A stretch of DNA of 64,000 bases from an uncultured Candidatus Actinomarina sp. (lineage in GTDB: Bacteria > Actinomycetota > Acidimicrobiia > Actinomarinales > Actinomarinaceae), in assembly GCA_902634185.1 (NCBI GenBank), contig CACPJC010000003.1, positions 96,001 to 160,000 on the forward strand. The letters run 5' to 3'. Below, one piece after another: positions 1-63,741 of the stretch. The notes under the pieces are model-generated. The model did not search any database. It was not told the origin of the DNA and saw only the letters and a list, made by a program, of their open reading frames with translations. How positions within the stretch are numbered: position 1 is the first letter of the stretch; every line of letters begins with the position of its first letter. Both the position numbers and the translations under genes were made by a program.

Positions 1-1003
1 GATTTACTCCATTAATTAATTTTTGAATCTCTTTTACAAAAATTTTTTTATTTAATGATCTATACATTTCAGAAATTCCTGTCCTGAAATATTTTTTCCC
101 TAGTTTGAGCATTCCGGGGAAAGTCAAAACTTTTGTTAAATCTACAAAATTAATATCTGTCCATTTATATCCTTCTTTTGAAAAAGCCAGTACTGCATTT
201 GGTCCAGCCTCAATGTCACCATTTGCAGTTTTTGTTAAATGTATACCTAGGAATGGAAGATCAGGATCAGCCAATGGATAAATCATATTGTTTAGAATTT
301 TATTTTTTGTGTTACTTATTTTGTAATACTCTCCCCTAAAAGGAATTATTTTTACATTTGGAGACATATTGTCTAATTTTGCAATTTCATCTGAGAAAAG
401 GCCTGCACAATTAATTAAAAATTCACAGTTGTATGTATATTTATTTCCCGAAATAGATTTCAAACCATTTTTATTTTCAATCTCTTTTATTTCCTCAATA
501 TATTTTATTTCTCCGCCCATCTCTATAAAATCATTTGCATATGCCTGAACAACTTCTTTATAGTCGACAACTCCTGCCTGAGGAACAAAAAGTCCATTTA
601 ACATTACTGAATTTGGTTCAATAGAAAGAAGTTCATCATTTTGAACAATTTTTACACCTTCCATCTCTAAATCAATACTTCTTTCTAATAAACTCTCTAA
701 TTTATCAAGATCATTATCAACTACTATCTTTCCTTCTTGCCGAAAGTTAATATTTTTCTTTTGTAAATATTCAACGAGTAAATTTCTTCCTTTTATAGAA
801 AGTTCAGACTTACTTGAATTTGGCTTATAGTAGATTCCTGAATGAATGACTCCTGAATTACGTCCAGATTGATGAAGTCCTGGTTCTTTTTCTTTTTCAA
901 GAACAACAACACTTAGATTTTGTTTTTGTAAGTGAAGAGCTGTAGACAAACCAACGATTCCAGCTCCAATCACTGCATAGTCATATGTGTTATTTAAATT
1001 CAT
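1..1003 (-). CDS. lhgO: L-2-hydroxyglutarate oxidase (FAD-dependent oxidoreductase), 3' end runs off the window
   Basis: Not in the ORF track. Manual translation from ATG at 1003 gives MNLNNTYDYAVIGAGIVGLSTA...EKEKEPGLHQSGRNSGVIHSGIYYKPNS (Rossmann GxGxxG plus the LhgO-type SGRNSGVIHSG motif), later PFLGIHLT and GPNAV. Confidence 0.8.
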   Translation of the reverse strand, partial: MNLNNTYDYAVIGAGIVGLSTALHLQKQNLSVVVLEKEKEPGLHQSGRNSGVIHSGIYYKPNSSKSELSIKGRNLLVEYLQKKNINFRQEGKIVVDNDLDKLESLLERSIDLEMEGVKIVQNDELLSIEPNSVMLNGLFVPQAGVVDYKEVVQAYANDFIEMGGEIKYIEEIKEIENKNGLKSISGNKYTYNCEFLINCAGLFSDEIAKLDNMSPNVKIIPFRGEYYKISNTKNKILNNMIYPLADPDLPFLGIHLTKTANGDIEAGPNAVLAFSKEGYKWTDINFVDLTKVLTFPGMLKLGKKYFRTGISEMYRSLNKKIFVKEIQKLINGVN

Positions 1004-49513: not shown

Positions 49514-50521
49514 ATGCGCAGAAGTTGGGCAGTAGGCCTAATTATTATCAGTATTCTTACTATGGCCTGCGGTGGAGCCGCAGACGTAGATGATTACAAA
49601 GCTGCATTTGTGTATGTAGGACCAGCTGACGATGGTGGATGGTCACAAGCACATGATGTGGGTCGACAATTCTTAGTAGATGAAACTGGAATCGAAACAG
49701 CTTACACAGAGCTAATTCCTGAGGATGCTACTGAGTTCAGAACAGTTGCAGAAGCTTATATTGAACAAGGTTACAATATTATTTTTGGAACAACCTTTGG
49801 TTACATTGATGCTATGGCAGAAATGGCAGAGGAATATCCAGACGTAATATTCCTTCATTGTTCAGGCTACTTAAGTAATGACAGTAACTTTGGAAACTAT
49901 TTTGGAAAAATGTATCAACCAAGATACCTATCTGGTTTAGCTGCAGGAGCAATGACAGAATCAAACAAAATCGGTTATGTTGCTGCATTTCCTATTCCTG
50001 AGGTTATTAGAGGAATCAATGCTTTTGCTACTGGTGTAAAAGAAGTAAATCCAGATGCTACAGTTGAGGTTGTTTGGACATTCACATGGTTTGGACCTGA
50101 AGAGGAAACTCAGGCAGCAAATGCTCTAATTGAGACAGGTGTGGATGTATTAGCTCAACACCAAGACTCACCTTCAACTGGTGTAGTTGCAGAAGCAAAT
50201 GGAGCAAAATGGATCTCATATAACACTGCATACGGTCAAGAAGCTGCACCGGGCGCATTTGTTACAGCTCCAGTTTGGGCCTGGGGACCATATTATGTTG
50301 ACGTTGTAAATTCAATTATCGATGGTGAATTTGCAGGTGGTGCTTATTGGGGTGGAATGGATACTGGACTTGTCTCATTATATGACTTAAGCTCTGATGT
50401 TCCATCTGACATTGCCGATTTAATTTCACAAAGAACAGATGAAATTATTGCAGGTGATTTTGATCCTCCAATAGTTGAGGAAGAGTTCATCGACAACGTT
50501 ATTGGTACAGTTAGCCCGTAA
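49514..50521 (+). CDS. BMP-family nucleoside ABC transporter substrate-binding lipoprotein
   Basis: Lipobox-like TMAC, FVYVGPADDGGWSQAH and IPEVIRGINAF motifs; strong SD AGGAGG. Confidence 0.9.
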   Translation: MRRSWAVGLIIISILTMACGGAADVDDYKAAFVYVGPADDGGWSQAHDVGRQFLVDETGIETAYTELIPEDATEFRTVAEAYIEQGYNIIFGTTFGYIDAMAEMAEEYPDVIFLHCSGYLSNDSNFGNYFGKMYQPRYLSGLAAGAMTESNKIGYVAAFPIPEVIRGINAFATGVKEVNPDATVEVVWTFTWFGPEEETQAANALIETGVDVLAQHQDSPSTGVVAEANGAKWISYNTAYGQEAAPGAFVTAPVWAWGPYYVDVVNSIIDGEFAGGAYWGGMDTGLVSLYDLSSDVPSDIADLISQRTDEIIAGDFDPPIVEEEFIDNVIGTVSP

Positions 50522-50532
50522 CAATTATTTTT

Positions 50533-50565
50533 AAAACACTCCAGCTTTAATGCTGGAGTGTTTTT
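50533..50565 (+). terminator. Intercistronic hairpin (terminator or mRNA stabiliser) after the binding-protein gene
   Basis: AAAACACTCCAGC-TTTAAT-GCTGGAGTGTTTT perfect 13-bp inverted repeat ending in a T run. Confidence 0.75.
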
Positions 50566-50579
50566 ACTACCATTACTAA

Positions 50580-52076
50580 ATGAAAAAATATATTCTCGAA
50601 GCAAAAAATATTTCAAAATCTTTTGGAAATGTGAAAGCACTTGAGGATGTAAACTTCTATCTTCAAAAAGGAAAAATTCATGGCTTACTTGGGGAAAATG
50701 GTGCGGGTAAATCATCATTAATGAATATACTTTCGGGAATCTATCAGCCTGAAAAAGGAAGTATATATATTAATGATATTAAACAAAAAAGTCTTGATCC
50801 TGAGTCTGCATCAGAACTTGGAATTGGAATGGTACACCAAGAATTCAGACTTATAGAAAGTTTTAGTATTCAAGACAACTTAACACTTTCAAAAGCAAAT
50901 ATTTATCAAGACAATTTCAAAGAAGCATATGACAAATATTCTGAAATATTTTCTTTATCTGTAAATCCTGAAAAGAAAATTGTACAACTTTCAGTTGGAG
51001 AAAAGCAAAAAATTGAAATAATGAAATTAATTTTTAAAAACAGCAACATTATGCTTTTAGATGAACCTACTGCTGTTTTGACACCTCAAGAAACAGACCA
51101 ACTAAGGATTTCTCTAGAAAGATTGTCAGATGAAGATGAAAAAACCATTGTATTGATTTCTCATAAACTTAGAGAAATCAGAGATTTTACAGAAAAAGTT
51201 TTTGTAATGAAAAATGGAAAAATGGTTGCTGAAGATCTTTCAACGGTAGATGTTACTGACGATGATCTTGTTGAATTAATGATGGGAAGTATACAAAAAT
51301 CAATTATCGACAAATCAAATAAGACTGGAGATACAAAATTAAGCGTAGAGTCAATCGAATATATCGATAGAGTAAGTAATTATAAGATTTTAGAAGATAT
51401 TAGTTTAGAAATAAAAGCTGGCGAAATTCTTGGCATTGCAGGAGTATCTGGAAATGGACAAGTAGAACTTGCAAATATTATTAGTGGTGTTGAGATTGAT
51501 TATTCTGGAAAAATATTCATTAATAATAAAGATGTTTCAAGAAAAGGAGTTAAGTCTCGAAAAAAACTTAATTTGTCTTACATTCCTGAAAATAGGCTTG
51601 GTGTAGGATTAGCACCAGGTGTCTCTGTTTTAGACAATTCAATAGTTAGAGATTATTTCAAAACAAGACTGGGTCCACATCTCTCTAGATCTAAAACTGA
51701 AACTTATCTTGAAAGTTTAATTAAAAAATTTTCAATTAAAGCTCCAGATTCGAAGGCGGAAATATCAACTTTATCAGGTGGAAATATGCAGAAGTTATTG
51801 ATGGGAAGAGAGTTGGTCAGTAATCCAGAAGTAATTATTGCTTCGCAACCAACGAGAGGTCTTGATGTAAATGCTGTAGAAGCTATTCATACCTTGCTCG
51901 TTGACCAAAGAGATAAGGGCTCAGCTATTTTGTTGATTTCAGAGGATCTTGATGAATTATTTAAATTAAGCAATCGTCTACATGTTATGTATGAAGGAAA
52001 AATTGTAAAATCATTCGACATTGACAATGCAGATATTAATAATGTTGGTCTTGCAATGGCAGGTGTAATTGAATAA
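50580..52076 (+). CDS. Nucleoside/sugar ABC transporter ATPase (two domains)
   Basis: GENGAGKSS, LSVGEKQ, LSGGNMQK and QPTRGLD motifs. Confidence 0.92.
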   Translation: MKKYILEAKNISKSFGNVKALEDVNFYLQKGKIHGLLGENGAGKSSLMNILSGIYQPEKGSIYINDIKQKSLDPESASELGIGMVHQEFRLIESFSIQDNLTLSKANIYQDNFKEAYDKYSEIFSLSVNPEKKIVQLSVGEKQKIEIMKLIFKNSNIMLLDEPTAVLTPQETDQLRISLERLSDEDEKTIVLISHKLREIRDFTEKVFVMKNGKMVAEDLSTVDVTDDDLVELMMGSIQKSIIDKSNKTGDTKLSVESIEYIDRVSNYKILEDISLEIKAGEILGIAGVSGNGQVELANIISGVEIDYSGKIFINNKDVSRKGVKSRKKLNLSYIPENRLGVGLAPGVSVLDNSIVRDYFKTRLGPHLSRSKTETYLESLIKKFSIKAPDSKAEISTLSGGNMQKLLMGRELVSNPEVIIASQPTRGLDVNAVEAIHTLLVDQRDKGSAILLISEDLDELFKLSNRLHVMYEGKIVKSFDIDNADINNVGLAMAGVIE

Positions 52077-53127
52077 CTTTAAACTTTTTAAAAGACAAAC
52101 AGTAAATGAACTATCAACTTTTTACTCTTTTTTAATAGGATTTATAATTGCCATAATTATTGGTTCGATAATATTACTTATACAGGACAAAAATCCAATA
52201 GATACTTTTTCATTAATGTTAAGACTCTCTGTGGGAAGTGTTAATAGCTTAAGCTCATCTTTAAATAAAGCGATTCCACTTATACTTGCTGGTCTGGGAA
52301 TTTCTATTATTAATTCTGTCAAGTTATGGAATATTGGTGCAGAAGGCCAAATTTTCTTAGGGGCCATTGCAGTAAATTTTATTTACATAAATACTCAATT
52401 TAATAACCCCTCGTTTCATATTCTCGTTTTGCTCCTTGCTGGTTTTGTTGGTGGATCAGTTTGCATATTGATACCAGCAATAACAAAAGTAGTTTTTGGC
52501 GTAAATGAAATAATTACGACACTATTAACAAACTATATAGTTTTTGGTGTGACAATTTTTCTTATTAATGGTCCATGGAAAGATCCTAAGTCTTTAAATT
52601 TTCCAGCTGCAGCATATGTCGGTGAGGAAGTATTTTTACCGACAGTAATTGGGAAGCTTAGTTTTGGGTTTTTAATATGTATACTTTTTACTTTCGTAGC
52701 TCATTATCTCAAAAATAAATCTGTATTTGGTTTTGAAATGAGAATTGCTGGTGGGTCTGCAATGACTGCTATTTATGCAGGAATTAATGCAAAACAAAAA
52801 GCTTTTATTGCCATGTTGATTGGCGGAGGTTTTGCTGGACTTGCAGGTGCTATCGAATTGTTAAGCCAAACACACAGAGTCTCTACTGGAATTTCGCAAG
52901 GTTTTGGATATACGGCAATAATTGTTGCTGCAATTACTGGCATGAGACCACTTGGAATTTTCTTAGTTGGTTCTTTATTTGGTGCTCTCTCAATTGGTGG
53001 ATCTGTAATACAAACAATTGGAGTAAGTACTTATATTGCAGATATAATTCAGGCTTCAACTCTTTTTGGTGCACTTATAATTCAATTTTTCTTTACTTAT
53101 CAAATAAAAAGAGTAGAAAATGATTGA
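52069..53127 (+). CDS. Nucleoside ABC transporter permease
   Basis: WNIGAEGQ, VNEIITTLL and GFGYTAIIVA motifs. Confidence 0.88.
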   Translation: MNNFKLFKRQTVNELSTFYSFLIGFIIAIIIGSIILLIQDKNPIDTFSLMLRLSVGSVNSLSSSLNKAIPLILAGLGISIINSVKLWNIGAEGQIFLGAIAVNFIYINTQFNNPSFHILVLLLAGFVGGSVCILIPAITKVVFGVNEIITTLLTNYIVFGVTIFLINGPWKDPKSLNFPAAAYVGEEVFLPTVIGKLSFGFLICILFTFVAHYLKNKSVFGFEMRIAGGSAMTAIYAGINAKQKAFIAMLIGGGFAGLAGAIELLSQTHRVSTGISQGFGYTAIIVAAITGMRPLGIFLVGSLFGALSIGGSVIQTIGVSTYIADIIQASTLFGALIIQFFFTYQIKRVEND

Positions 53128-54043
53128 TATTCAACTTATTGGACTTTTAAATGCAACATTGCAAGCAGCAACTTTGTTATTCATTGCTGCATTGGGAGAA
53201 TTAATTACCGAAAAATCTGGAATACTCAACCTTGGAGTAGAAGGTATGATCTCAGTTGGTGCGGTAACTGGCTTCATGACAGCAATTAATACGGAAAATA
53301 TATTCCTGGCAGTTTTAGTTGGTGTTTTGTCTTCCTCTATCTTTGCATCAATACATGCACTTGTTACTGTTGTTTTAAAACAAGACCAAACAGTCTCAGG
53401 ATTGATTCTTACAATTTTAGGTTTAGCCCTCTCATCATTACTTGGGAAAAATTACGTCGGAAGAAAGCTTGTTACAAAATTAGAAAGTGTTAGCTCAATA
53501 ACAGAACCTTCAAATATAATTGAGGTCTTAATCAGCCAAAATATAATCTTTTATTTAGCTGTTGTTTTAATGATATCTACATCCTTTGTATTAAAACGAA
53601 CAATGTTTGGTAGAAGGCTTGAAGCTGTCGGGGAGGACTCTAAATCATCAGATTCAATGGGTTTAAAAGTTGCAAAAACACAATTTATCGCAACTTGTGT
53701 AGGAGGTGCATTTGCAGGACTTTCAGGTGTTTATCTCACACTAAGTTATGTTCCATATTGGACTGATAACATGACTTCAGGAAGAGGCTGGATTGCTTTA
53801 GCACTTGTTATATTTGGGGGTTGGAAGCCATATAGAACTGCTTTGGGTGCACTTTTGTTTGGATTTCTAGAAGCCTTGGTTCCAAGATTACAAACTTATG
53901 GTTTTGAATTAAGTCCTTACATAGTAAAAATAACTCCATACGTAATTACGATTTTGGTTTTAGTTATTCTTACAATCTATAAAGGAGGAAAGACAGGAGC
54001 ACCTAGAAATATTGGAGTTCCATTTTTTCGAGAAAATAGATAA
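53120..54043 (+). CDS. Nucleoside ABC transporter permease
   Basis: EKSGILNLGVEGM, AVGED and GRGWIALALVIFGGWKP motifs. Confidence 0.88.
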   Translation: MIDIQLIGLLNATLQAATLLFIAALGELITEKSGILNLGVEGMISVGAVTGFMTAINTENIFLAVLVGVLSSSIFASIHALVTVVLKQDQTVSGLILTILGLALSSLLGKNYVGRKLVTKLESVSSITEPSNIIEVLISQNIIFYLAVVLMISTSFVLKRTMFGRRLEAVGEDSKSSDSMGLKVAKTQFIATCVGGAFAGLSGVYLTLSYVPYWTDNMTSGRGWIALALVIFGGWKPYRTALGALLFGFLEALVPRLQTYGFELSPYIVKITPYVITILVLVILTIYKGGKTGAPRNIGVPFFRENR

Positions 54044-54084
54044 TTAACCAAACGTATTCAACAAGTTTGGTAATATATATATAG

Positions 54085-54115: not shown

Positions 54116-54119
54116 TAAA

Positions 54120-54596
54120 ATGACAATAGATAAAATTCTATTCCGCCTCAGTAAAGAAATCATTGAATCAAACACAGATAATCCATACTTATTAGGCATA
54201 CCAAAAAGAGGAGATCTTCTAGCTCAAAGGATATCTAATAATTTATTGAGCGAAAACTTTAAACACGACATAGGAAAAGTAGATTACTTACCGTTCAGAG
54301 ATGATTTAGATAAGAATCCAAAAAAGAACAATCTTGCTATATCACCAAAAGATAGAGAAGTTATATTAATTGATGACGTTATTTATACCGGCAGAACATT
54401 AAGGGCATCTATTGAAGCTGTAATGTACTCTGGTCGACCTAAATCTATTTCACTTTTATGTTTAATTGACCGAGGACATAGAGAATTACCTATCACCCCT
54501 AAATTTGTAGGTAAAAATATACCAACTAATCAAGATGAGTATGTTTCCGTTTTTTTGAAAGAAATAGATAACGAAGACAAGGTCGAGGTTACATAG
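54120..54596 (+). CDS. pyrR: Pyrimidine operon regulator / uracil phosphoribosyltransferase
   Basis: FRDD, VILIDDVIYTGRT and DRGHRELPI...VGKNIPT motifs. Confidence 0.93.
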   Translation: MTIDKILFRLSKEIIESNTDNPYLLGIPKRGDLLAQRISNNLLSENFKHDIGKVDYLPFRDDLDKNPKKNNLAISPKDREVILIDDVIYTGRTLRASIEAVMYSGRPKSISLLCLIDRGHRELPITPKFVGKNIPTNQDEYVSVFLKEIDNEDKVEVT

Positions 54597-54598
54597 AA

Positions 54599-55477
54599 AT
54601 GAAACATCTTTTAGATTTTCAAGATGTAAACAAAAATCATTTAGAAAATCTAATTGACAAAACTAGAAGTCTTGAAGTTAAACTAGAAAATCTCGGCTCT
54701 TTAGCTCTATTAAAGTTTGACGAACCTTCAACAAGAACGAGACTTTCTTTTGCAATAGCAGCAGATAAACTTGGAATTAAAACTTTCGAAACTTCAGATG
54801 TAGTATCGGCGAAACAAAAAGGGGAAATTCTTAAACATGAGATAGAGACATATGTTTCTATGGGTATTGAAGTTTTAGTATTAAGGACAAAAGAAAATAA
54901 TATCGATGATTATCGAGAATTTAATAACATCAGTGTTATAAGTGCTGGTTTTGGAAATAAATCTCATCCAACTCAAGCATTGATAGATATATCTACACTA
55001 TATAGCCTGAATAAAATCAATGAAAAACGTACCCCTGTAACTTATGTTGGGGACGTAAAACATTCAAGAGTTTTTGAATCTGGAAGACAGCTCCTAAATA
55101 TATTAGGATTCAAAGTTGGTGTCTTTACAGATAAAAAACTATTACCCGACAATAAAAATGACCTTGAAATTTATCAATCATGGGATGAAGTATTTGAAAA
55201 TTCTAACGCAATAGAACTTCTAAGAATACAGAAAGAAAGATTAGAAGACAATGAAGAACTAAGCTTTGACGAATACATAAATAGTTATCAACTTACAAAT
55301 GAAGTTTTAAGTAAATCTCAAAGTGATTTAGCTGTTCTTCATCCAATGCCAATCAATATTGGTATTGAGATTTCTAAAGAAGCTATTGAAGATAGCAAAA
55401 TGAAATATAAAGACCAGCTTTTACACGCAATACCTTCACGAGTTACAGCCTTCAAATATGTAAGGGATGAAATATGA
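54599..55477 (+). CDS. pyrB: Aspartate carbamoyltransferase catalytic subunit
   Basis: EPSTRTRLSF, HPTQAL, GDVKHSRV, LRIQKER and LHPMP motifs. Confidence 0.93.
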   Translation: MKHLLDFQDVNKNHLENLIDKTRSLEVKLENLGSLALLKFDEPSTRTRLSFAIAADKLGIKTFETSDVVSAKQKGEILKHEIETYVSMGIEVLVLRTKENNIDDYREFNNISVISAGFGNKSHPTQALIDISTLYSLNKINEKRTPVTYVGDVKHSRVFESGRQLLNILGFKVGVFTDKKLLPDNKNDLEIYQSWDEVFENSNAIELLRIQKERLEDNEELSFDEYINSYQLTNEVLSKSQSDLAVLHPMPINIGIEISKEAIEDSKMKYKDQLLHAIPSRVTAFKYVRDEI

Positions 55478-56529
55478 TTGAAATTCCTGGATTTATCGAT
55501 CTACATACCCATACAAGATATCCTGACAATAATAAATTTCCTTTCATCGATATCGATGATTCAGCAATTAATGGTGGTTTCTCAACAATCCTCGCAATGC
55601 CAAATTCTGAAATACCTATTGACTCAATCAAAAACCTACGAATTGCAGAGGAAATAGACAAAAAATTAAAAACAAAGGTACACCGTGTTGGCTCATTGAC
55701 CATAAATTTAGAAGGAAAAGAACTTGTTAATTATAAAGAATTCGTTGAAAACGGTATCACAATTTTTTCAGATGATGGAAAATCTTTAATTGATGATCAT
55801 TTAGCTGATGAGGCATTTAAACAAATTAGCAAACTTGGTGGTGCAGTCTTTCAACATTGTGAAAAAAGTTGTCACTCCAAGCCTGGTGATATTGCTCCAC
55901 CAAATAGTGATAGTGACTTGATTCCAATAAATAATGATGAGGAGTTGGAAGTTCTTGAAAGAGACTTAAGTTTATCTGAAAAATACGGGACAAGATACCA
56001 TGCTCAGCACCTTTCAACTTTTGAAAGTGTTCAGCTGATAAAAAAAGCAAAACAAGAGGGTCTTCCTGTCACTGCGGAAGTAACACCACATCATATACTT
56101 CTAAATAATGAAAATTTAGACACAAATAATGGACTATTTAAGATGTACCCACCCCTCAGAACTGAAAAGGACAGAGAGGGATTGGTTGATGGCTTACAGT
56201 CTGAAATTATAGATGTCATTGCTACAGATCACGCACCTCATAAAGCAGAAACTAAAAATGTCCCTTTTAAGGATGCTAATCGTGGCGTTGTTGGTCTTGA
56301 ATCAGCTTTTCCCTTGATTTATAGTTCAAATATTTTTGATATAGATCAAATGTTGAAATTTTTAGTCGTAAATCCTACAAAAATACTCAATGAACTTGGT
56401 TACGAAATTCCCAAGACGGTAAATACATGGAAGAAATCAAAGTCAGTTTTTATTACAAAATCAAAATTCAAAAATTCATTATTTGAAAATGAAAATATAG
56501 AAATTGTAAGGGTTCTTTCAGGTGTATAA
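55474..56529 (+). CDS. pyrC: Dihydroorotase
   Basis: PGFIDLHTHTR, MPN, SDDG, EVTPHH and ATDHAPH motifs. Confidence 0.92.
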   Translation: MIEIPGFIDLHTHTRYPDNNKFPFIDIDDSAINGGFSTILAMPNSEIPIDSIKNLRIAEEIDKKLKTKVHRVGSLTINLEGKELVNYKEFVENGITIFSDDGKSLIDDHLADEAFKQISKLGGAVFQHCEKSCHSKPGDIAPPNSDSDLIPINNDEELEVLERDLSLSEKYGTRYHAQHLSTFESVQLIKKAKQEGLPVTAEVTPHHILLNNENLDTNNGLFKMYPPLRTEKDREGLVDGLQSEIIDVIATDHAPHKAETKNVPFKDANRGVVGLESAFPLIYSSNIFDIDQMLKFLVVNPTKILNELGYEIPKTVNTWKKSKSVFITKSKFKNSLFENENIEIVRVLSGV

Positions 56530-57622
56530 AAAAGCAATTCTGTTGAATCAAAATGGTGATGAATTTCTAGGTTGGACAACTGAAATATTTGAGCCAACAA
56601 CTGGAGAACTTATTTTCAATACAGCGATGACTGGGTTTGTCGAAATATTAAGTGATCCATCATATATAAATCAGATTGTAACTTTTACTTCCTCACATAT
56701 AGGAAATTACGGTATGTCAAAAAATGATTTTGAATCCAATAAACCAAAAATTGAAGCAGCAATTGGAAATTCTTTTACAAACACTCCATCTTCATGGAGA
56801 TCTGAGAAATCAATAACGTCATGGTTGAAAGAATATGAGATTCCATACAGTGGTGGATTTGATGTAAGAAATATAACAAAATATCTAAGAGACAACGGTT
56901 CGAGTATGTTTGCACTTGGTATAGATGTCGATACAAGAGATTTAAAGGAAATTTTATCAAAAGCAAAAAATATTCTTGGTGACAGTTCAGCAATGACTGC
57001 AGGAAACCAGAATAATGAAAACACTCCAACTGAAGGAAAGATTGGAATTATAGATCTTGGAGCTAAAAGAAGCATTATAAAAGTGCTTGAAGACCATGAT
57101 TACAAAGTTGTAATGATCTCCCCCTCTACGACATCAAATGAGATTTTAAAAATGAATTTAAAAGGTCTTTTAATTTCGAACGGACCAGGTGACCCAAGAT
57201 CATTGCTTACAGTAATAGATACCGTTCAAAACCTTATAGGAAAACTTCCAATATTTGGAATTTGTCTTGGTCATCAAATACTTGCTTTGGCTTGTGGTCT
57301 TAAAGTTAAAAAAATGCAATTTGGTCATCATGGTTCAAATCACCCAGTTGAAATAGAGGGAATAAAAAAAGCACTAATAACCGCACAGAACCATGGTTTC
57401 TCTATTGAGGAGTTTGAAGATGGGTTTGAGCATGAAAATTTTGGAAACATTAGTGTCTTTGCAAGGAATTTAAATGATGGAACAAATGAAGGAATTAGTC
57501 TTTGGGATTCCATGGCGTACTCAGTTCAATTTCATCCAGAATCAGGACCTGGTACAACTGATGGATTACAAATTTTTAATCCTTTTTTTGAAATGATTGA
57601 GAATAACTATGGCAAAAAATAA
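56522..57622 (+). CDS. carA: Carbamoyl-phosphate synthase small subunit
   Basis: FNTAMTG..E..SDPSY, SNGPGDP, GICLGHQ and QFHPE motifs. Confidence 0.96.
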
Positions 57623-60600
57623 AGAAATTAAGAGTATTTTGATAATTGGTTCGGGACCAATTGTTATAGGTCAAGCTTGCGAGTTTGATTATTCAGGATC
57701 TCAAGCAGCTAAAGCACTTAAAAAAGAAGGATTTCGTGTAATTCTAGTTAATTCAAATCCAGCAACTATTATGACAGATCCAGAAATGGCACATGCCACA
57801 TACATCGAGCCTTTAACTCACGACTACCTAAAAAAAATAATCGAAATAGAAAAGCCTGATGCTGTTTTACCAACATTAGGAGGACAAACTGCACTTAACT
57901 TATCGATTGAATTAGAAAAAAGTGGTGTTTTAAAAGAAAATAATGTGGAACTTCTTGGAGCCTCGGCCAATGCTATTGAGATTGCAGAAAACAGATGGAA
58001 ATTTAAAGAAGCTATGGATGGAGTTGGTATTAAAACACTTAAGGCAACTTATGCTAAATCTTTTGATGAGGGAATAAGCGCTAGTAAAGAAATTGGTTTT
58101 CCATTAATGCTAAGACCATCATTTATTCTTGGTGGTGGTGGAACAAGTGTAGTGAATAATGAAGAAGACTTTAAATCAAAATTATCTGACGCGTTTAATG
58201 CTTCTCCTACTCAGGAAGTCTTAATTGAAGAATCAATATATGGATGGAAAGAATTCGAACTTGAAGTAATGAGAGATAGTGATGGTAATGGTGTAATTGT
58301 TTGCGGAATAGAAAATTTTGATCCCATGGGTGTCCATACTGGAGACTCAATAACAGTTGCTCCTATTCAAACATTATCTGATAAAGAATATCAAACTATG
58401 AGGGATGAGGCACTACTTTGTTTGGACACTATTGGAATAGCAACTGGTGGTAGCAATGTTCAATTTGCTATAAACCCTGAAAATGGAGATAGAAGAATAA
58501 TTGAGATGAATCCTAGGGTCTCAAGGTCGTCTGCTCTAGCTTCAAAAGCAACTGGATTTCCTATTGCCAAGTTTGCTGCCCTGTTGGCAGTAGGTTACAA
58601 CTTAACTGAACTTGAAAATGACATAACTGGAACAACACCGGCTAGTTTTGAACCCGTCCAAGATTATGTTGTGGTTAAAATTCCTAGATTTGATTTTCCA
58701 AAATTTCCATCAACAGATGACATATTAGGCACATCAATGCAGAGTGTGGGTGAAGTTATGTCAATAGCTTCTACTTTTACAGAAAGCTTAACTAAAGCCA
58801 TTAGGTCACTCGAAATTGGTAAATCAGGAATAAGAAATATAGACAATAGGTTTATAGGAATGCCAAAAGAAATTCTACAAGATGAAATCAGAACACCTAG
58901 ACCTAGAAGAATATTTGCGATCCTTGAAGCGATTAGAAGAAACTGGCCACTTGAAGACATAGCAAAAATATCCTCTGTAGATATATGGTTTTTACAAGAA
59001 ATTGAAAAAAGTTTTAATGTTAACCCTGAAAATACTCCATCCTCTGTTCTGAAAATGCTTGGATGGACGGAAGAAGATCTTGATAATAAAGAGTCTAAAA
59101 ATGAATTAGAAAATAATAGAGTTTATAAGTTAGTTGATACATGTTCTGCAGAGTTCGAGTCCAAAACGCCTTACTTATATTCAACAAATGGTGTAAGTAA
59201 CGACGATACAACAACTGACAAGAAGAAGGTTGTAGTTATTGGATCGGGTCCAAATAGAATTGGCCAAGGAATTGAGTTTGATTATTGCTGTGTTCATGGA
59301 ATCAGTTCATTAAAAGAAAATGGATTTGAAGCAATAATGATAAACTCAAATCCGGAAACGGTTTCTACAGACTACGATACTGCAGATAAACTATATTTTG
59401 AGCCTCTTACATGGAGAGAAGTAAAATCTGTACTAAATAGAGAAAAGCCTGATTCGGTAATAATTCAACTTGGAGGTCAAACTCCATTAAAACTTGCAAA
59501 AAATATATCCAAAGAAGGTTTTAATATTGCTGGATCATCATTAGATGTAATTGACAAAACAGAAGATAGAGATCTATTTCAAAAACTATGTTTAGATCAG
59601 AATATTCGACAACCAGAGTCTAAAATCGCAAAAAATGAGAATGAGTTAGTTGAAGCTGTAAAAGAAATAGGTTTTCCAGTCTTGTTACGGCCAAGTTATG
59701 TATTAGGTGGAAGAGCCATGAGAGTTGTTCAAAGTGATGAAGAACTTGAAAATTATTTGGATATATTAGCGAGTGCAGATGAAGATGGTAATCCATTTAA
59801 ATCTGGTCCCCTTTTGGTTGATCAGTTTTTAACGGACACTATTGAAATTGATGTTGACTTAATTTCTGATGGAAAAGAAGTTTATATTGCAGGAATTTTA
59901 GAACATCTTGAGCCTGCTGGAGTACATAGTGGTGATTCTACAGCGGTCATTCCACCTTATAGTGTTAATGAGGAAATGTTGAAAGAGGTAGAGGAAAAAA
60001 GTAAAAAGCTTGCTTTAGGTCTGAATGTAAAGGGACTTCTAAATATACAATTTGCCATTAAAGATGAAGAATTATTTATATTAGAGGCGAATCCTAGAGC
60101 ATCAAGAACGATGCCATTTGTTGCAAAAGTAACCGGCAATCAAATTATTAAAGCTGGAACATTATTAATGCTTGGTTATTCAATTGATGAAGTTAGAAAT
60201 AAGACTAAATACTTGAGTAGTTCATCAAATAAAGTTGCAATTAAAAAGGCTATATTTCCATGGTCTAGATTTCCAGCTGAAGACACTATGTTAGGACCGG
60301 AAATGAAAGCAACTGGTGAAGTATTAGGAGTTGGAAAAGAGTTTGGTACTGCATTAAATAAAGCATATGCAGCTGCAGGTGTAGAAATTAATAATAAAGA
60401 GAAAGGGATATTTGTAACTTTAAGTGACAGCGAAAAGCCAAATTTTATTCAGACAGTCAATAAATATCTTGAACTTGGCTTCACACTTTACTCAACTGAA
60501 GGAACAGGAAAATTTCTTGAAACTAATGGTATTGATTCAGTAATAGTTGGTAAAGCTGATGACTTAGGACAAACTTCGTTAACAATAATTGAAAATAAAT

Positions 60601-60791
60601 TAGTTTCTTTAGTAATCAATACACCAACATATGCAAATGAATTGTCAGATGGTTGGAAAATTAGACGTTTATCACATGAAACTGGAGTGGCGGTTGTTTC
60701 GTCTGTAAGAGAAGCTGATGCATTTATTGAAGCTTTTTTAAATCAGAACTTAGTGTTAGATGATCTGGAGGTCATACAAGATGTCAGTTAA
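57609..60791 (+). CDS. carB: Carbamoyl-phosphate synthase large subunit
   Basis: [51 protein letters not shown] motifs and a C-terminal MGS domain. Confidence 0.98.
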
Positions 60792-61419
60792 ACCAATTTT
60801 CTTTGCACTGGATGGTAAATCCCTAAAAGAATTTAAAGAACAATTAGATATCTTAAAGGATCATATTTATGGGGTAAAAGTTGGATTAGAACTTTTTACT
60901 TCTGAAGGCCCTTCATGTGTTGAACAACTTAAGAATGATGGGTGGGTTGTTTTTTTAGATTTAAAACTACATGACATCCCAAACACTGTAGGTGAAGCGG
61001 CTGCTTCAGTTTCAAATATTGGAGCAGACTATTTAACTTTACATATATCATCTGGGAAAGAAGCATTATCAGAAGCTGTGGATAAAAAAAGTAAAGATTT
61101 AAATCTTCTTGGAGTCAGTAGTGCTTTAACAAGTAAATCAGTTGATTCAAATACAAGCAAGATTGTTAAAGATGAGTTTCAAATAGCTAAAGACTCAAAT
61201 TTAGAAGGCGTTATTTGTCCAGCATCTGAAATTGCTAATACAGCAAATTTATTTGATCTAATTGTTACACCAGGCATTAGATTAGAAAATGATTTACATG
61301 GAGATCAAAAAAACATAACTACTCCTAAAAAGGCTATCGAGCTTGGAGCAAAATATATTGTTATGGGACGATCAATTAAAAATAATCCTGAAATGGTAAT
61401 AAATGAATTAGAAGTATGA
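60781..61419 (+). CDS. pyrF: Orotidine 5'-phosphate decarboxylase
   Basis: [25 protein letters not shown] and MGRSI motifs. Confidence 0.94.
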
Positions 61420-62093
61420 ATAAATTTATTGCAGCACCTTTTGGAAACTACATAAAGACTAAAAATACTATTTCCGTATCTGGTAGTTGGACTGTTGAAA
61501 AAAGAACAGGTCGAATTGTTCAAATAGTTAAAACTTTACGATATACAAAACGTGGATGGGTTAACAAAATTGGTTTAAGAAATCCTGGTTTAACAATTGG
61601 GCTTCCTAAACATAAGACTGGTGAAGTCTTTTCAATTGCAGGAATAGAAAAAGATGACTGGAGATTATTTGCGGAGAGAATACCAAATGATTTCAATATT
61701 GAAGTCAATATGTCATGTCCAAATATAGACGCACATTACATTGACGGAATTGAAGATTTTGAGCCAGATACAAGAAACTGGTACATAGGAAAAATTTCGC
61801 CACTTACTACTTTTCAGGAATTGGATGAGTACATCAACAAATTTAGATTCAAACAGATTCATGCATGCAATACATTACCAATAGATAAAGGAGGACTAAG
61901 TGGTAAAGAGTTAATCCCATATACTTCAAAGTTTGTTAAACACATTAAAGATTCTTATCCTGATATTGAAGTTATTGCAGGTGGAGGTATTGATTCTCTA
62001 AAAGATATAGAGTACTACAAAAATATTGGTGCCGATCATATTAGTTTGGGTACTGTTTGTTTCAATCCACTAAAATTAAGGAAGTTAATATGA
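61416..62093 (+). CDS. pyrD: Minimal, divergent dihydroorotate dehydrogenase
   Basis: NKIGLRNPG, EVNMSCPN (catalytic Cys), CNT, GGLSG and IAGGGI motifs; only 225 aa; located in the pyr operon. Confidence 0.75.
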   Translation: MNKFIAAPFGNYIKTKNTISVSGSWTVEKRTGRIVQIVKTLRYTKRGWVNKIGLRNPGLTIGLPKHKTGEVFSIAGIEKDDWRLFAERIPNDFNIEVNMSCPNIDAHYIDGIEDFEPDTRNWYIGKISPLTTFQELDEYINKFRFKQIHACNTLPIDKGGLSGKELIPYTSKFVKHIKDSYPDIEVIAGGGIDSLKDIEYYKNIGADHISLGTVCFNPLKLRKLI

Positions 62094-62446
62094 ATTTATT
62101 TATTAAAGAAGATTTCATCTCTCATGCTGGCTTACCACTTACATGGAAAGTGGAATGTGATGCACTAGATGAAAATGACTACGAAGCATTAGCAAAAATA
62201 GTTAGTGAGAAAATGACTTTTAGAAATGTCAAAGGTATTCCACGTGGCGGCATACCGTTTGAAAAAGCATTAAAACCTTACTGTTCAAATAATGATACAG
62301 ATCCACTACTAATTTGTGATGATGTTTATACAACTGGTACTTCTATGAGAGAAGTCTATGAAGACGGAGCATTAGGTATTGTTGTATTCGCTAGAAATGA
62401 AATTCAAGATGACTGGGTTAAAGCTATTTGGCAGTTATCAATATAA
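62090..62446 (+). CDS. pyrE: Minimal orotate phosphoribosyltransferase-like protein
   Basis: FISHAG..LTWKVECD, GIPRGG and LICDDVYTTGTS PRPP motif; ATGA overlap with the pyrD stop. Confidence 0.65.
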   Translation: MNLFIKEDFISHAGLPLTWKVECDALDENDYEALAKIVSEKMTFRNVKGIPRGGIPFEKALKPYCSNNDTDPLLICDDVYTTGTSMREVYEDGALGIVVFARNEIQDDWVKAIWQLSI

Positions 62447-62448
62447 AG

Positions 62449-63309
62449 ATGATAGAAAATAAGTATGCCTCAGCTTTAGATGGTCTTGAAATAGAAGATC
62501 CAGTAAAAAGCTTTTTTGATTTCTGTAAAGAACGAGAAAAGATAAGAATTTCACGAGAAAATGGTGAAGATTTTCCATGGAGTGCAGATGAAATTTTTCA
62601 AAATGGAAGGTTCTTGAATGTCTTTAGAGAAGATGATCGAGTTAGTAAATCAATTATTAATTTTGCGGATAATTTAAATGAAGAGCCATCAAAACTTATT
62701 AACGCTGTATTTTTTGCAAGGTGGTGCAATAGGCAAGAAGTTTTAGATACTTTAACGCCCGATGATTTAAATAATCCTGAAAACTTAAAAAATAAATTAG
62801 AAAGTATTGATCCATGGTGTAATGAAACTGCATATCCGGTTGAACCAGTTACATGGAAAGGTAAACAATACTCAAGAATTGATGCTGCAACTAAATTATT
62901 TTACGAGATACAAGGTTCTTTATTAAACATTCTTAAATCATCAAACAAAAGTGTAATTACTGCAACCAACAACATAAATAAAGAATTTCAGATGCAAAAT
63001 GATTTTCCAATTTTCATGGCAGTGATTGATATTGCTTGGTTTAGACCCGATATTATTCCAATTGAAAGTGAGGTTCCTACAGGAATAGGTGCTGTTGCTT
63101 ATCTGGATAGATTACAAAATCATCTTGGTTTAAGTTCCCACCAAGAAGTTGGTGAAAAAATGATTGAACTTCAAAAAACATACTGGCCTGAAGCAAAACG
63201 TGGTTTTAATCCAATAGATATAGAATATTTAGCTTGTGAATGTAGAAAATACTATAGCTATATAAATGGGACAAAGGTTTTTGAAGGTAAAAACAAATTT
63301 ATACCTTAA
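62449..63309 (+). CDS. aGPT-Pplase1 / amino acid:DNA transferase (5-hmdU DNA kinase helical domain) family homolog
   Basis: FCKERE.IR..R..G..FPWS.DEIF..GRFLNVFREDDRVS at the N-terminus, TGIGA..YL in the middle, and DIEYLACECRKY at the C-terminus. Confidence 0.7.
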   Translation: MIENKYASALDGLEIEDPVKSFFDFCKEREKIRISRENGEDFPWSADEIFQNGRFLNVFREDDRVSKSIINFADNLNEEPSKLINAVFFARWCNRQEVLDTLTPDDLNNPENLKNKLESIDPWCNETAYPVEPVTWKGKQYSRIDAATKLFYEIQGSLLNILKSSNKSVITATNNINKEFQMQNDFPIFMAVIDIAWFRPDIIPIESEVPTGIGAVAYLDRLQNHLGLSSHQEVGEKMIELQKTYWPEAKRGFNPIDIEYLACECRKYYSYINGTKVFEGKNKFIP

Positions 63310-63741
63310 TTAGCTAAGTTTATTAATTCTATTTATGTATCTTTCCTCATTTAAAAAAGAGGAATTTAAAAATGACTCAGTTATTTCTTTTGCAGCCTCA
63401 ATATCAAGATTTTCCGAACCGAGACATAGAACATTTACATCATTATGCTCAACAGATTGAATAGCGGTTTTTACATTAGTGACATTAGAAGCTCTTATAC
63501 CTTTTACTTTATTTGCTGCAATAGACATGCCAACACCTGTCCCACAGATTAAAACTCCCTTTGTGTCTTCATTATCCAAAACGAATTCGGATACTTTCGT
63601 TGCATAATCTGGAAAATCACAAGGTTCCAAACTATCAGTTCCTAAGTCCTCAATTTCAAGATCAGAAGATAAAGATTCTATTAATAATTGTTTTAATTCA
63701 AAACCTGCATGATCAGAGGCAATAGCGATTTTATTAATCAC
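63310..63741 (-). CDS. rpiB: Ribose-5-phosphate isomerase B
   Basis: IASDHAGFELK, DFPD, ICGTGVGMSIAANKVKGIRA and HNDVNVLCLG motifs. Confidence 0.95.
   Translation of the reverse strand: MINKIAIASDHAGFELKQLLIESLSSDLEIEDLGTDSLEPCDFPDYATKVSEFVLDNEDTKGVLICGTGVGMSIAANKVKGIRASNVTNVKTAIQSVEHNDVNVLCLGSENLDIEAAKEITESFLNSSFLNEERYINRINKLS

What the first reader, a model, noticed from the sequence alone, without database searches (positions are those of the whole stretch)
61416..63309. pyr operon ends in a phage-type DNA thymine-hypermodification enzyme homolog
Seen: a 286-aa ORF starts 2 nt after the pyrE stop, apparently as the last cistron of the PyrR-controlled operon, with ER..IR..R..G..PWS.D.IF..RF.NV.REDDRVS and DIE..ACE.RKY motifs. 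Known: these motifs typify the aGPT-Pplase1/amino acid:DNA transferase family, which in phages installs amine or amino-acid groups on phosphorylated 5-hydroxymethyluracil in DNA together with a 5-hmdU kinase and a dUMP hydroxymethylase. Neither partner is in this window. Inference: a cellular, possibly pyrimidine-regulated use of this fold, such as host DNA/RNA base modification, removal or salvage of hypermodified pyrimidines from phage DNA, or anti-phage defence. Such a system in a minimal genome may be undescribed.
Basis: partly seen in the sequence, partly recalled or inferred. Interest (0 to 1): 0.8.

Follow-up and report, generated by a model that had tools for sequence, protein, structure and literature searches.

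The report
Lone phage-type thymine-modification domain in Actinomarina
The last gene of this marine bacterium's pyrimidine operon is a well-conserved, stand-alone copy of a DNA-glycosylase-like domain otherwise known from phage thymine-hypermodification clusters, but its place beside the pyrimidine genes looks positional rather than functional and its role in cells is still unknown.

Summary
ORF 62449-63309 (+, 286 aa) starts 2 nt after the stop of a 118-aa OPRTase-like gene and carries the quoted motifs. It is a full-length member of Pfam PF18723 (HMUDK_hel, the old aGPT-Pplase clade 1). It is not in the amino-acid:DNA transferase family (PF18724, clade 2). The AF2 model (pLDDT 96) is closest to PaMx11 gp46/PUGT, QNG1 and HhH DNA glycosylases. 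An E-x3-C-E motif sits where PUGT has its catalytic Cys247.

The organism is Ca. Actinomarina. The gene was found in 30 of 34 genus genomes, with dN/dS of 0.10-0.25 and 28 motif residues nearly invariant in 79 sequences. No 5-hmdU kinase or dUMP hydroxymethylase was found, so a hypermodification pathway is not supported.

The pyr link is weak. In the genus the gene lies at the pyr/rpiB locus in 11 of 30 genomes, and in 3 of those the pyr operon is deleted. In the other 19 it lies behind umuC. In SAR406 (63-67% identical) it follows LptF/G, OYE or glycerophosphotransferase genes.

Best reading: a stand-alone, DNA-acting, base-flipping Cys enzyme for C5-altered uracil or thymine, with a housekeeping role. 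The chemistry is inferred, not shown. Interest is moderate.

The parts
62449..63309 (+). Stand-alone PF18723 (HMUDK_hel / aGPT-Pplase clade 1) protein, 286 aa ('hel')
   Evidence: Pfam 68.3 bits, E 9.3e-19. phrog_2396, E 2.6e-22. AF2 pLDDT 96.3. Fold matches. hhalign to phage Ab18 ORF13: probability 100, E 1.3e-43.
62533..62637 (+). N-terminal conserved block, R29...R60-E-D-D63 (ER..IR...PW..D...N.FREDD)
   Evidence: Invariant or nearly invariant columns in A1/A2. Of the 28 positions checked, 25 are identical in all 79 marine cellular sequences; D47 is 77 of 79, R54 and N177 are 78 of 79.
63082..63093 (+). G212-I-G214-A215, read as the hairpin of a helix-hairpin-helix motif
   Evidence: G212, G214 and A215 are invariant. 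Reading this as an HhH hairpin is my inference from the fold matches.
63223..63252 (+). E259-Y-L-A-C263-E264-C-R266-K267-Y268, the putative catalytic Cys/Glu helix
   Evidence: Invariant in 79 of 79 sequences. The only local hhalign alignment to the ADDT profile puts E259/C263 on ADDT E243/C247 (not significant). The VIA range 20..272 to 8..256 on PUGT gives the same offset (inference).
62090..62446 (+). 118-aa miniature OPRTase-like gene ('pyrE'); an alternative TTG start at 62057 gives 129 aa
   Evidence: Pfam PRTase only 16.5 bits. Small family of 180 proteins, some named OPRTase by JGI. The AF2 model is closest to OPRTases. The other PRTase genes found are placed as PyrR, Hpt, Upp and PRPP-synthetase-sized ORFs, plus one 158-aa PRTase I did not classify.
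61416..62093 (+). Short (225 aa) dihydroorotate-dehydrogenase-like gene (pyrD)
   Evidence: PF01180, 48.1 bits in two stretches. PDB DHODH hits at E 3e-9. It is the only DHO_dh match in the assembly.
54120..61419 (+). pyrR-like, pyrB, pyrC, carA, carB, pyrF: the upstream part of the pyr operon
   Evidence: ORFs. PyrR-like PRTase. pyrF OMPdecase, 125.9 bits. pyrB/pyrC/carA/carB are named from reading the translations and from position; I did not run them through Pfam.
49514..54043 (+). Bmp/PnrA-type ABC transporter (binding protein, ATPase, two permeases) directly upstream of pyrR
   Evidence: Pfam PF02608, PF00005, PF02653 x2. In 3 genus genomes hel follows its last permease directly.
63310..63741 (-). 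rpiB, convergent; its stop abuts the hel stop
   Evidence: PF02502, E 1.7e-48. In genomes without hel at this locus, the OPRTase-like gene abuts rpiB directly.

Best explanation
The ORF encodes a stand-alone cellular member of PF18723 (the phage 'Pplase1 / 5-hmdU DNA kinase helical domain' family). It has an all-alpha fold like helix-hairpin-helix DNA glycosylases.

Shown:
- Family membership, and a confident fold closest to PUGT, QNG1 and HhH glycosylases.
- An intact set of family-invariant residues, including E259-x3-C263-E264.
- Strong purifying selection and near-universal presence in Ca. Actinomarina.
- Close relatives (63-67% identity) in SAR406.
- No kinase, dUMP hydroxymethylase or ADDT partner found.
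- A variable genomic position, always as the last co-directional gene behind unrelated genes.

Inferred: the protein binds DNA, flips out a uracil- or thymine-type base, and uses Cys263 (with Glu259/Glu264) to attack C6 and work on a C5 substituent, as the sister family ADDT does. Its substrate would be a C5-altered pyrimidine that arises without a phage pathway, such as 5-hydroxymethyl- or 5-formyl-uracil from thymine oxidation. Its role would be housekeeping DNA maintenance in these small, AT-rich, sunlit-ocean genomes.

It is probably read through from the pyr operon here, but that link is positional. It is not part of pyrimidine biosynthesis, and it does not install hypermodifications.
For: Family and fold:
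- Family.
- Fold: AF2 pLDDT 96.3, pTM 0.91. In the VIA wide search the 15 best rows are all PUGT, QNG1 or HhH glycosylases: 8z2m Z 8.6 (206 residues aligned, rmsd 4.2), 7ugk Z 8.3, Ogg/AlkA/Mag1/AGOG Z 7-7.9.
- BFVD: 8 hits at E<=0.001, led by the phiRSL1, SP10 kinase and PhiW-14 proteins; ADDT-domain proteins at ranks 9 and 12.
- Catalytic motif: E259/C263/E264/R266/K267 are invariant and are placed like ADDT E243/C247. Cys247 is the catalytic nucleophile of PUGT (passages of PMC11472151). The Cys and neighbouring Glu are essential in M6 gp51 and ViI gp247 (passages of PMC8989533).

Selection: dN/dS is 0.10-0.25 in 16 of 16 pairs, across all genomic contexts.

Distribution:
- 30 of 34 genus genomes, G000 included; 0 of 24 genomes from other families of the class.
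- 4 of 400 other Actinomycetota genomes.

No partners:
- PF00303: 0 in the own genome and 1 of 38 in the genus.
- PF18748: 0.
- PF13521: nothing over cut-off.
- The genus makes dTMP with ThyX (33 of 38).

Positional link only.

DNA-repair neighbourhood: in 19 of 30 genus genomes the gene lies 34-50 nt behind a Y-family polymerase gene, with a divergent UmuD/LexA-like S24 gene.
Against: - No activity is known for any clade-1 protein in what I could read. M6 gp55 was dispensable in the reconstituted step.
- Profile-profile comparison with ADDT is not significant (probability 0.9%), so the Cys equivalence rests on a short local alignment and on range arithmetic.
- For helical proteins, VIA Z values of about 8 can reflect only a common arrangement (note). 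Foldseek against PDB found nothing at E<=0.001.
- Dehydrating unphosphorylated 5-hmU is chemically harder than displacing a phosphate, and no reductant or nucleophile partner is evident.
- No LexA/Cheo box was found by the umuC-hel unit, so SOS control is not shown.
- The hel tree (quick method, long outgroup branches) places pyr-locus genes in three Actinomarina clusters and umuC-locus genes in one. The pyr/rpiB position may therefore be ancestral in the genus, which keeps a pyrimidine-related role possible.
- The genome already has two canonical HhH-GPD genes.
Confidence: 0.5

Rival explanations
1. Anti-phage defence. The protein recognises, excises or strips 5-hmdU-type or hypermodified thymidines in incoming phage DNA, so that the DNA is damaged or exposed to host nucleases.
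For: - The family is otherwise phage-borne and sits in 5-hmdU clusters. Within the 68 viral loci fetched, a TS-like gene occurs in 61, a P-loop kinase in 48 and an ADDT gene in 28.
- The DefensePredictor paper lists an aGPT-Pplase domain among predicted, unvalidated defence domains. It validated an E. coli system with TS, dNMP kinase, 5-hmdU kinase and NMAD domains (passages of PMC13092281).
- Canonical PF18723 genes in two other Actinomycetota genomes lie beside MazG_C, or beside a thymidylate-synthase-like gene and IrrE-type peptidase genes.
Against: - It behaves as a core gene: 30 of 34 genus genomes, only two stable loci, dN/dS 0.10-0.25.
- Its neighbours are housekeeping genes, not defence islands.
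- It is a single gene with no effector or partner.
Confidence: 0.2
2. Pyrimidine or nucleoside salvage enzyme acting on free nucleotides, in the manner of QNG1. It would clean up or recycle C5-modified (deoxy)uridine nucleotides taken up from seawater, and would be functionally tied to the nucleoside transporter and pyr operon.
For: - QNG1/DUF2419, an HhH-fold enzyme solved with queuosine-5'-monophosphate, is the second-best structural match (Z 8.3 and 7.9).
- The gene follows the Bmp/PnrA ABC transporter plus pyr operon here, and stays directly behind the transporter where the pyr genes are deleted.
- The pyr/rpiB position may be ancestral in the genus.
Against: - 19 of 30 genus genomes have it behind umuC, and their pyr operons end without it.
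- SAR406 contexts are unrelated to nucleotide metabolism.
- It is kept whether or not pyrF is found (pyrF in 23 of 38 genus genomes, hel in 30 of 34).
- Every characterised relative acts on DNA.
- The G-I-G-A hairpin is invariant.
Confidence: 0.15
3. One reading: a pyrimidine-regulated enzyme that installs amine or amino-acid groups on the host's own DNA or RNA, that is, a cellular hypermodification system.
For: - Same superfamily as ADDT, with a similarly placed Cys/Glu motif.
- Co-directional 2-nt spacing behind the pyr genes.
Against: - It is not an ADDT-family member.
- No 5-hmdU kinase was found and no dUMP hydroxymethylase. No TET/JBP-type source of 5-hmU was searched for.
- The pyr linkage is not conserved.
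Confidence: 0.04
4. A non-catalytic leftover: a DNA- or base-binding module that lost its fused kinase and now acts only as a binding or regulatory protein, or needs an unidentified host kinase.
For: - Among homologues longer than 501 aa, 22 of 24 are PF18723+AAA_28 fusions at 42-62% identity.
- Pfam names the domain as the helical part of the kinase.
Against: - The stand-alone form dominates: 1525 near-length proteins against 22 fused clusters.
- Fused forms are nested inside the stand-alone clade in the tree (root uncertain).
- The Cys/Glu motif is invariant under strong purifying selection.
Confidence: 0.08

Closest known systems
Phage PF18723 proteins (Pplase1 / HMUDK_hel): Pseudomonas phage Ab18 ORF13 and PAE1 Orf49, the SP10 5-hmdU DNA kinase (637 aa), PhiW-14 and phiRSL1 proteins
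   Same: Same Pfam family over its full length. hhalign probability 100, E 1.3e-43 to Ab18 ORF13, including the E..LCE..KY motif. Best BFVD structural matches, TMq 0.6-0.7.
   Different: About 20-28% identity over the full length. The phage genes lie directly behind, or are fused to, a P-loop 5-hmdU kinase and lie near a thymidylate-synthase-like gene. The Actinomarina gene has none of these anywhere in its assembly.
Amino-acid:DNA transferase (ADDT, PF18724, aGPT-Pplase2), e.g. PaMx11 gp46/PUGT, PDB 8z2m
   Same: Best solved-structure match: Z 8.6, 206 residues aligned, rmsd 4.2. An E-x3-C motif lies on the last long helix at the same offset as the catalytic Cys247.
   Different: Different Pfam family with no HMM hit. 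The profile comparison is not significant. The ADDT-invariant residues W146 and K150 that hold glycine could not be mapped. ADDT needs 5-PmdU made by a kinase, which is absent here.
Marine PF18723+AAA_28 fusion proteins (P0121, P0124, a Rhodothermales MAG locus L122, P0391-P0412)
   Same: 42-62% identity over the whole PF18723 part. Same marine clade in the tree.
   Different: They carry a C-terminal P-loop kinase-like domain of about 200 aa. The window's protein ends after the helical domain, and no such kinase was found elsewhere in the assembly.
QNG1 / DUF2419 queuine salvage hydrolase (PDB 7ugk, 7u07)
   Same: HhH-glycosylase-like fold, Z 8.3 and 7.9. It is an example of this fold working on a free modified nucleotide.
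   Different: No sequence similarity (10-12% identity in the structural alignment). Whether the Cys/Glu motif has a counterpart there was not tested.
HhH-GPD DNA glycosylases (Ogg, AlkA, Mag1, AGOG, EndoIII, MutY)
   Same: Shared overall fold, Z 5-7.9, and a G-x-G hairpin.
   Different: No PF00730 hit. A catalytic Asp/Lys could not be assigned. The genome has two ordinary HhH-GPD genes elsewhere.

Membership tests
PF18723 HMUDK_hel (aGPT-Pplase clade 1) | Pfam HMM match above the gathering score, over the whole domain | tested here: met
   68.3 bits against a cut-off of 25; profile positions 4-272 of 281. The same holds in 30 of 34 genus genomes.
PF18723 HMUDK_hel (aGPT-Pplase clade 1) | Family-invariant residues (R29, R60, D63, R91, Y129, D194, G212/G214, E259, C263, E264, K267) | tested here: met
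   Present in the window's protein. Of the 28 positions checked, 25 are identical in 79 of 79 marine sequences and 3 in 77-78 of 79. The motif aligns with phage Ab18 ORF13.
PF18723 HMUDK_hel (aGPT-Pplase clade 1) | Fold like that of phage family members | tested here: met
   BFVD: 8 hits at E<=0.001, the named ones all PF18723 proteins, probability 1.00, TMq 0.59-0.71.
PF18723 HMUDK_hel (aGPT-Pplase clade 1) | Adjacent to, or fused with, a P-loop 5-hmdU DNA kinase (the usual context, not a sequence criterion) | tested here: not met
   The neighbours are the OPRTase-like gene and rpiB. No PF18748 match and no PF13521 match over cut-off in the 83%-complete assembly. The PF18748 control rang in no control genome, so that search is weak.
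Thymidine hypermodification pathway (system) | dUMP hydroxymethylase (ThyA-like) to supply 5-hmdU | tested here: not met
   PF00303: 0 in the own genome and 1 of 38 genus genomes. The genus has ThyX (33 of 38).
Thymidine hypermodification pathway (system) | Group-transferring ADDT (PF18724) enzyme | not tested
   No genome-wide PF18724 search was run. Only the ORF itself was scanned, with no hit at E<=1.
ADDT / aGPT-Pplase2 (PF18724) | HMM or profile similarity to ADDT | tested here: not met
   No Pfam hit. hhalign probability 2.6% to one ADDT sequence and 0.9% to a 14-sequence ADDT alignment.
ADDT / aGPT-Pplase2 (PF18724) | Catalytic Cys with a nearby essential Glu on the C-terminal helix | tested here: inconclusive
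   E259-x3-C263 has the same spacing as ADDT E243-x3-C247. It is the only local hhalign alignment and fits the VIA ranges, but there is no residue-level structural alignment or statistical support.
HhH-GPD DNA glycosylase superfamily | HhH-GPD Pfam signature and a catalytic Asp after the hairpin | tested here: inconclusive
   No PF00730 hit. Fold Z 5-7.9 to Ogg, AlkA, Mag1, AGOG, NTHL1 and EndoIII. A G-I-G-A hairpin is present. D257 is invariant, but its equivalence to the catalytic Asp was not established.
pyr operon (functional member) | Conserved linkage to pyr genes across relatives | tested here: not met
   Genus: 7 genomes behind the OPRTase-like gene, 1 at a contig start, 3 behind the ABC permease with the pyr genes gone, 19 behind umuC. 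SAR406: LptF/G, OYE, glycerophosphotransferase and other neighbours.
pyr operon (functional member) | Co-transcription with pyr genes in this genome | tested here: inconclusive
   2-nt gap and no terminator-like site. Contigs from RNA libraries bridge the junction in 3 of 4 runs, but contigs cannot prove a single transcript and DNA carry-over is possible.
Known anti-phage defence systems (PADLOC-DB) | Match to a defence-protein model | tested here: inconclusive
   No PADLOC family at E<=0.01 for the ORF. The library dates from 2023 and would not hold newer predictions.

The most novel reading that the evidence does not exclude
A new kind of DNA repair or processing enzyme. A lone Pplase1-type protein uses thymidylate-synthase-like Cys-C6 chemistry, without a kinase, to process oxidised thymine (5-hydroxymethyl- or 5-formyl-uracil) or foreign modified thymidine directly in DNA. 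It would be a core function shared by horizontal transfer among the most abundant streamlined marine bacteria (Actinomarina, SAR406). If so, it would also give the first function for the uncharacterised clade-1 paralogue of phage hypermodification clusters.
Probability: 0.12. Interest if true: 0.85.

Novelty: new variant of a known kind. Interest (0 to 1): 0.5.

Why it matters
In the papers I could search, PF18723 (Pplase clade 1) is the one recurrent gene of phage thymidine-hypermodification clusters that has no demonstrated activity. Here it appears stripped of every pathway partner. It is kept under strong purifying selection as a near-universal gene of a roughly 1-Mb streamlined genus, and it is shared at about 65% identity with SAR406.

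That makes this marine clade a clean system for asking what the domain does on its own. It also raises the possibility that abundant ocean bacteria have an unrecognised way of handling C5-modified pyrimidines in DNA.

The finding also corrects a tempting inference. Being the last cistron of the pyr operon does not, in this case, indicate a role in pyrimidine metabolism.

Tried and rejected
1. 'The genome has no thymidylate synthase, so this Cys enzyme might replace it.' PF00303 and PF02511 were both missing from G000, but ThyX is present in 33 of 38 genus genomes. The gap in G000 is due to incompleteness. Rejected.

2. Foldseek against PDB gave no match at E<=0.001. Only the Foldseek-independent VIA search showed the fold.

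3. phmmer against PDB sequences found nothing meaningful for hel (best E 0.1), for the fused P0121 or for the OPRTase-like protein.

4. hhalign of the family profile against one ADDT sequence and against an ADDT alignment was not significant.

5. NCBIfam gave no family for hel or for the OPRTase-like protein.

6. PADLOC gave no hit for hel, the umuC-like protein or the umuD-like protein. The fused Rhodothermales protein weakly hit mad8 through its P-loop part.

7. Regulation:
- Rfam found no element in 48000-64000 at E<=1.
- The recalled PyrR-box motif occurs at chance level: 30 matches against 32 expected.
- Promoter-like sites are below the shuffled expectation, and no terminator-like site lies near the junction.
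- The recalled Cheo/LexA box near umuC is at chance level, with no match at the divergent region.

8. A close phage donor was not found. All 68 IMG/VR relatives have at most 28% identity over the full length, and all 20 INPHARED hits cover at most 31% of the query. The ESM Atlas labels some near-identical clusters 'Viruses' on the basis of a few members. I treat that only as a lead.

9. RNA evidence:
- Only Logan contigs were available, so strand, transcript ends and expression level could not be read.
- Parts of hel without cover in single runs say nothing.
- An odd 'goes back 136' joint in one X8 contig at 62668>62533 was not pursued.

10. A single deaminase-PF18723 fusion protein (P0397, one 1.7-kb contig) is most simply a read-through with an upstream TadA-like gene. 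I did not use it.

11. Iyer et al. 2013, the paper that defined the aGPT-Pplase clades, is not held. What I say about it comes from how cite it.

12. My statement that I found no experimental function for clade 1 rests on searches and on passages.

Full report
**1. What is at the coordinates**

The finding's range (61416-63309) holds three co-directional genes:
- a 225-aa dihydroorotate-dehydrogenase-like gene, 61416-62093;
- a 118-aa phosphoribosyltransferase-like gene, 62090-62446 (129 aa from a TTG at 62057);
- the ORF in question, 62449-63309, 286 aa.

The upstream TAA is at 62444-62446 and the ATG at 62449, so the gap is 2 nt.

Upstream lie pyrF, carB, carA, pyrC, pyrB and a PyrR-like PRTase gene (named). 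Before these comes a Bmp/PnrA-type ABC transporter. Downstream, rpiB and fumC converge on the ORF.

**2. Family**

- The ORF matches Pfam PF18723 HMUDK_hel ('5-hmdU DNA kinase, helical domain') at E 9.3e-19, 68.3 bits, over profile positions 4-272 of 281. It hits nothing else at E<=1.
- It also hits phrog_2396, of unknown function.
- Viral models that match its predicted structure are named either '5-hmdU DNA kinase helical domain-containing protein' or 'Pplase1 alpha-glutamyl/putrescinyl thymine pyrophosphorylase clade 1'.

That activity was shown for clade 2, now Pfam PF18724 ADDT. Examples are M6 gp51, ViI gp247 and PaMx11 gp46.

In Pseudomonas phages Ab18 and PAE1 the homologue of our ORF is the second paralogue. 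It lies directly behind the P-loop kinase and near a thymidylate-synthase-like gene. Our family profile aligns with Ab18 ORF13 at probability 100, E 1.3e-43.

In the passages I read, M6 gp55 was not required for the reconstituted glycinylation step. I found no demonstrated activity for clade 1 (searches; passages). Supplements were closed.

**3. Fold and active site**

- With a 35-sequence alignment, AlphaFold2 gave pLDDT 96.3 and pTM 0.91, an all-alpha protein.
- Foldseek against PDB gave nothing at E<=0.001.
- The Foldseek-independent VIA search ranked PaMx11 gp46/PUGT first (8z2m: Z 8.6, 206 residues aligned, rmsd 4.2). Next came the queuine-salvage hydrolase QNG1/DUF2419 (Z 8.3 and 7.9), then Ogg, AlkA, Mag1, AGOG, MUTYH, NTHL1 and EndoIII (Z 5-7.9). 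The 15 best rows all belong to this one structural class.
- The tool warns that Z near 8 is weak for helical proteins. The coherence of the list and the BFVD result are what make the assignment credible.

Conservation:
- Invariant across distant relatives: R29, R60, Y129, G214.
- Present in at least 90% of them: P43, D47, N57, D63, R91, F186, D194, G212, E259, C263, E264, K267.
- In 79 marine cellular sequences, 25 of 28 motif positions are invariant and the other 3 differ in one or two sequences.

An ADDT alignment has invariant E243 and C247. C247 is the catalytic nucleophile of PUGT. The only local alignment hhalign returns between the two profiles puts E259/C263 on E243/C247, but at probability 0.9%. 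The VIA ranges (model 20..272 on chain 8..256) give the same 16-residue offset. I take the Cys equivalence as likely but not shown.

**4. Organism and distribution**

- Record titles of near-identical loci name Candidatus Actinomarina.
- The assembly has 974,068 bases in 16 contigs and is 83% complete.
- The gene is single-copy.
- It was found in 30 of 34 genus genomes (G000 included) and in 0 of 24 genomes of other families of the class.
- It was found in 4 of 400 other Actinomycetota genomes sampled. One of those, G198, is flagged unpublished.
- In two of those four that I examined, canonical PF18723 genes lie beside a MazG_C gene, or beside a thymidylate-synthase-like gene and IrrE-type peptidase genes.
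- The protein databases hold 1525 near-length relatives and 915 cluster representatives at E<=0.001.
- Of the 80 genome-contig loci kept (out of 174 relatives), 42 are Actinomarina or other Actinomycetota. The other 38 are mostly Marinimicrobia/SAR406 or unclassified marine MAGs at 61-68% identity, plus one Pelagibacteraceae MAG and one Rhodothermales MAG.
- Identity across these phyla equals that between Actinomarina subgroups, which suggests horizontal transfer.
- dN/dS is 0.10-0.25 in 16 of 16 pairs, across all contexts.

**5. Partners**

- No ThyA-like gene in the own genome, and 1 of 38 in the genus.
- No PF18748 kinase match (the control rang in no control genome, so this is weak).
- No AAA_28 match over cut-off.
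- ThyX is missing from G000 but present in 33 of 38 genus genomes. The genus therefore makes dTMP normally, and I rejected the idea that it lacks a thymidylate synthase.
- By contrast, within the 68 viral loci fetched, a TS-like gene occurs in 61, a P-loop kinase in 48 and an ADDT gene in 28.
- Close relatives do exist as fusions. 22 of 24 homologues longer than 501 aa are PF18723+AAA_28 at 42-62% identity. In the quick tree they are nested within the stand-alone SAR406 clade (root uncertain).

**6. Is it part of the pyr operon?**

In this genome it probably is, physically:
- The gap is 2 nt, with no terminator-like site.
- Contigs assembled from metatranscriptome libraries of four studies cover the gene. 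In 3 of 4 runs they bridge the junction. Contigs cannot prove one transcript, and DNA carry-over is possible.

Comparatively, the link does not hold. Among the 30 genus genomes with the gene:

| Position of the gene | Genomes |
|---|---|
| Behind the OPRTase-like gene | 7 |
| Same rpiB-flanked locus, at a contig start | 1 |
| Directly behind the last ABC permease, with pyrR through the OPRTase-like gene gone | 3 |
| 34-50 nt behind a Y-family polymerase (umuC-like) gene, with a divergent UmuD/LexA-like gene | 19 |

- The three permease-adjacent cases include a species whose protein is 93% identical to ours.
- The umuC-adjacent arrangement is documented.
- In umuC-type genomes the pyr operon ends at the OPRTase-like gene and abuts rpiB.
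- In G000 the umuC locus lacks the gene.
- pyrF was found in 23 of 38 genus genomes, so the gene is at least as widely kept as the pyr operon.
- In the 38 non-Actinomarina loci, the gene follows LptF/G permease (16), Old-Yellow-Enzyme-type oxidoreductase (6) or glycerophosphotransferase (5) genes. In 4 it lies next to divergent DEAD-box helicase or PLP-enzyme genes, and in 7 none of my reference neighbours is upstream.
- The common theme is a small gene tacked onto the 3' end of unrelated transcription units.
- One caveat: the hel tree puts pyr-locus genes in three Actinomarina clusters and umuC-locus genes in one. The pyr/rpiB position may therefore be the older one in the genus (quick method, long outgroup branches).

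**7. Reading**

- The solid part: this is a functional, stand-alone cellular PF18723 enzyme with the catalytic-looking Cys/Glu helix of its ADDT sister family. It has no hypermodification partners, and its pyr linkage is positional.
- The inferred part: by analogy with ADDT/PUGT and the HhH fold, it flips a uracil- or thymine-type base out of DNA and attacks C6 with Cys263 to act on a C5 substituent. With no kinase to make 5-PmdU, the plausible substrates are oxidised thymines, or modified thymidines of foreign DNA.
- The umuC neighbourhood in most species of the genus mildly favours DNA-damage handling. I could not show SOS control.
- The rivals are defence (against the core-gene behaviour), QNG1-like nucleotide salvage (and the transporter/pyr position), and a non-catalytic remnant. 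All remain open.

**8. Verdict**

- This is a new variant (stand-alone, cellular, core) of a known but functionally uncharacterised family.
- Cellular homologues of this family were already noted in print. An aGPT-Pplase domain has been predicted in defence systems.
- Interest is therefore moderate, about 0.5, rather than the 0.8 first given.

Noticed in passing
window 62090-62446 (+): The 'pyrE' is a 118-aa miniature PRTase, against about 170-220 aa for solved OPRTases. It falls below the Pfam cut-off and has no PDB sequence hit. Its AF2 model (pLDDT 91.6) is nevertheless closest to OPRTases. It belongs to a small family of 180 proteins. No canonical pyrE was found in the 83%-complete assembly.
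   Followed up: partly
window 61416-62093 (+): pyrD is also shortened, 225 aa against about 300. It matches DHO_dh only in two separate stretches and is far below the NCBIfam equivalog cut-offs (60 bits against 269). It is the only DHODH-like gene in the assembly. No electron-transfer subunit was looked for.
   Followed up: no
L010 (G014) 1380-1480; also L012 (G003), L048 (G019): In three Actinomarina species the whole pyrR-to-OPRTase block (about 8.3 kb) is absent. The ABC permease gene is followed after about 22 nt by the PF18723 gene. pyrF was found in only 23 of 38 genus genomes. De novo pyrimidine synthesis seems to be variably lost in this genus, presumably replaced by nucleoside uptake.
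   Followed up: partly
L023 (G008) 9067-10903; own genome L030 5902-7732: A umuC-like Y-family polymerase gene and a divergent UmuD/LexA-like S24-peptidase gene have annotated starts only about 4 nt apart. The S24 protein has a Lys/Arg/Gly-rich N-terminus in place of a recognisable wHTH. No Cheo-type LexA box is nearby.
   Followed up: partly
L122 5956-7443 (Rhodothermales MAG); P0121, P0124, P0391-P0412: Marine PF18723+AAA_28 fusion proteins (about 490-640 aa) are 42-62% identical to the stand-alone form. This is a cellular helical-domain plus P-loop architecture that uses a different P-loop family (PF13521) from the phage kinase (PF18748).
   Followed up: partly
viral loci L131-L198: More viral contigs carry PF18723, the kinase and a TS-like gene than carry a detectable ADDT gene within the fetched flanks (48 with kinase, 61 with TS-like, 28 with ADDT, of 68). 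This hints that clade 1 plus the kinase may form a module of its own in some phages. Many loci are truncated, so this is only a lead.
   Followed up: no
window 60800-63750, run X8: One metatranscriptome contig shows a 'goes back 136' joint, 62668>62533, inside the PF18723 gene. It appears in a single run and is probably an assembly artefact or strain mix.
   Followed up: no
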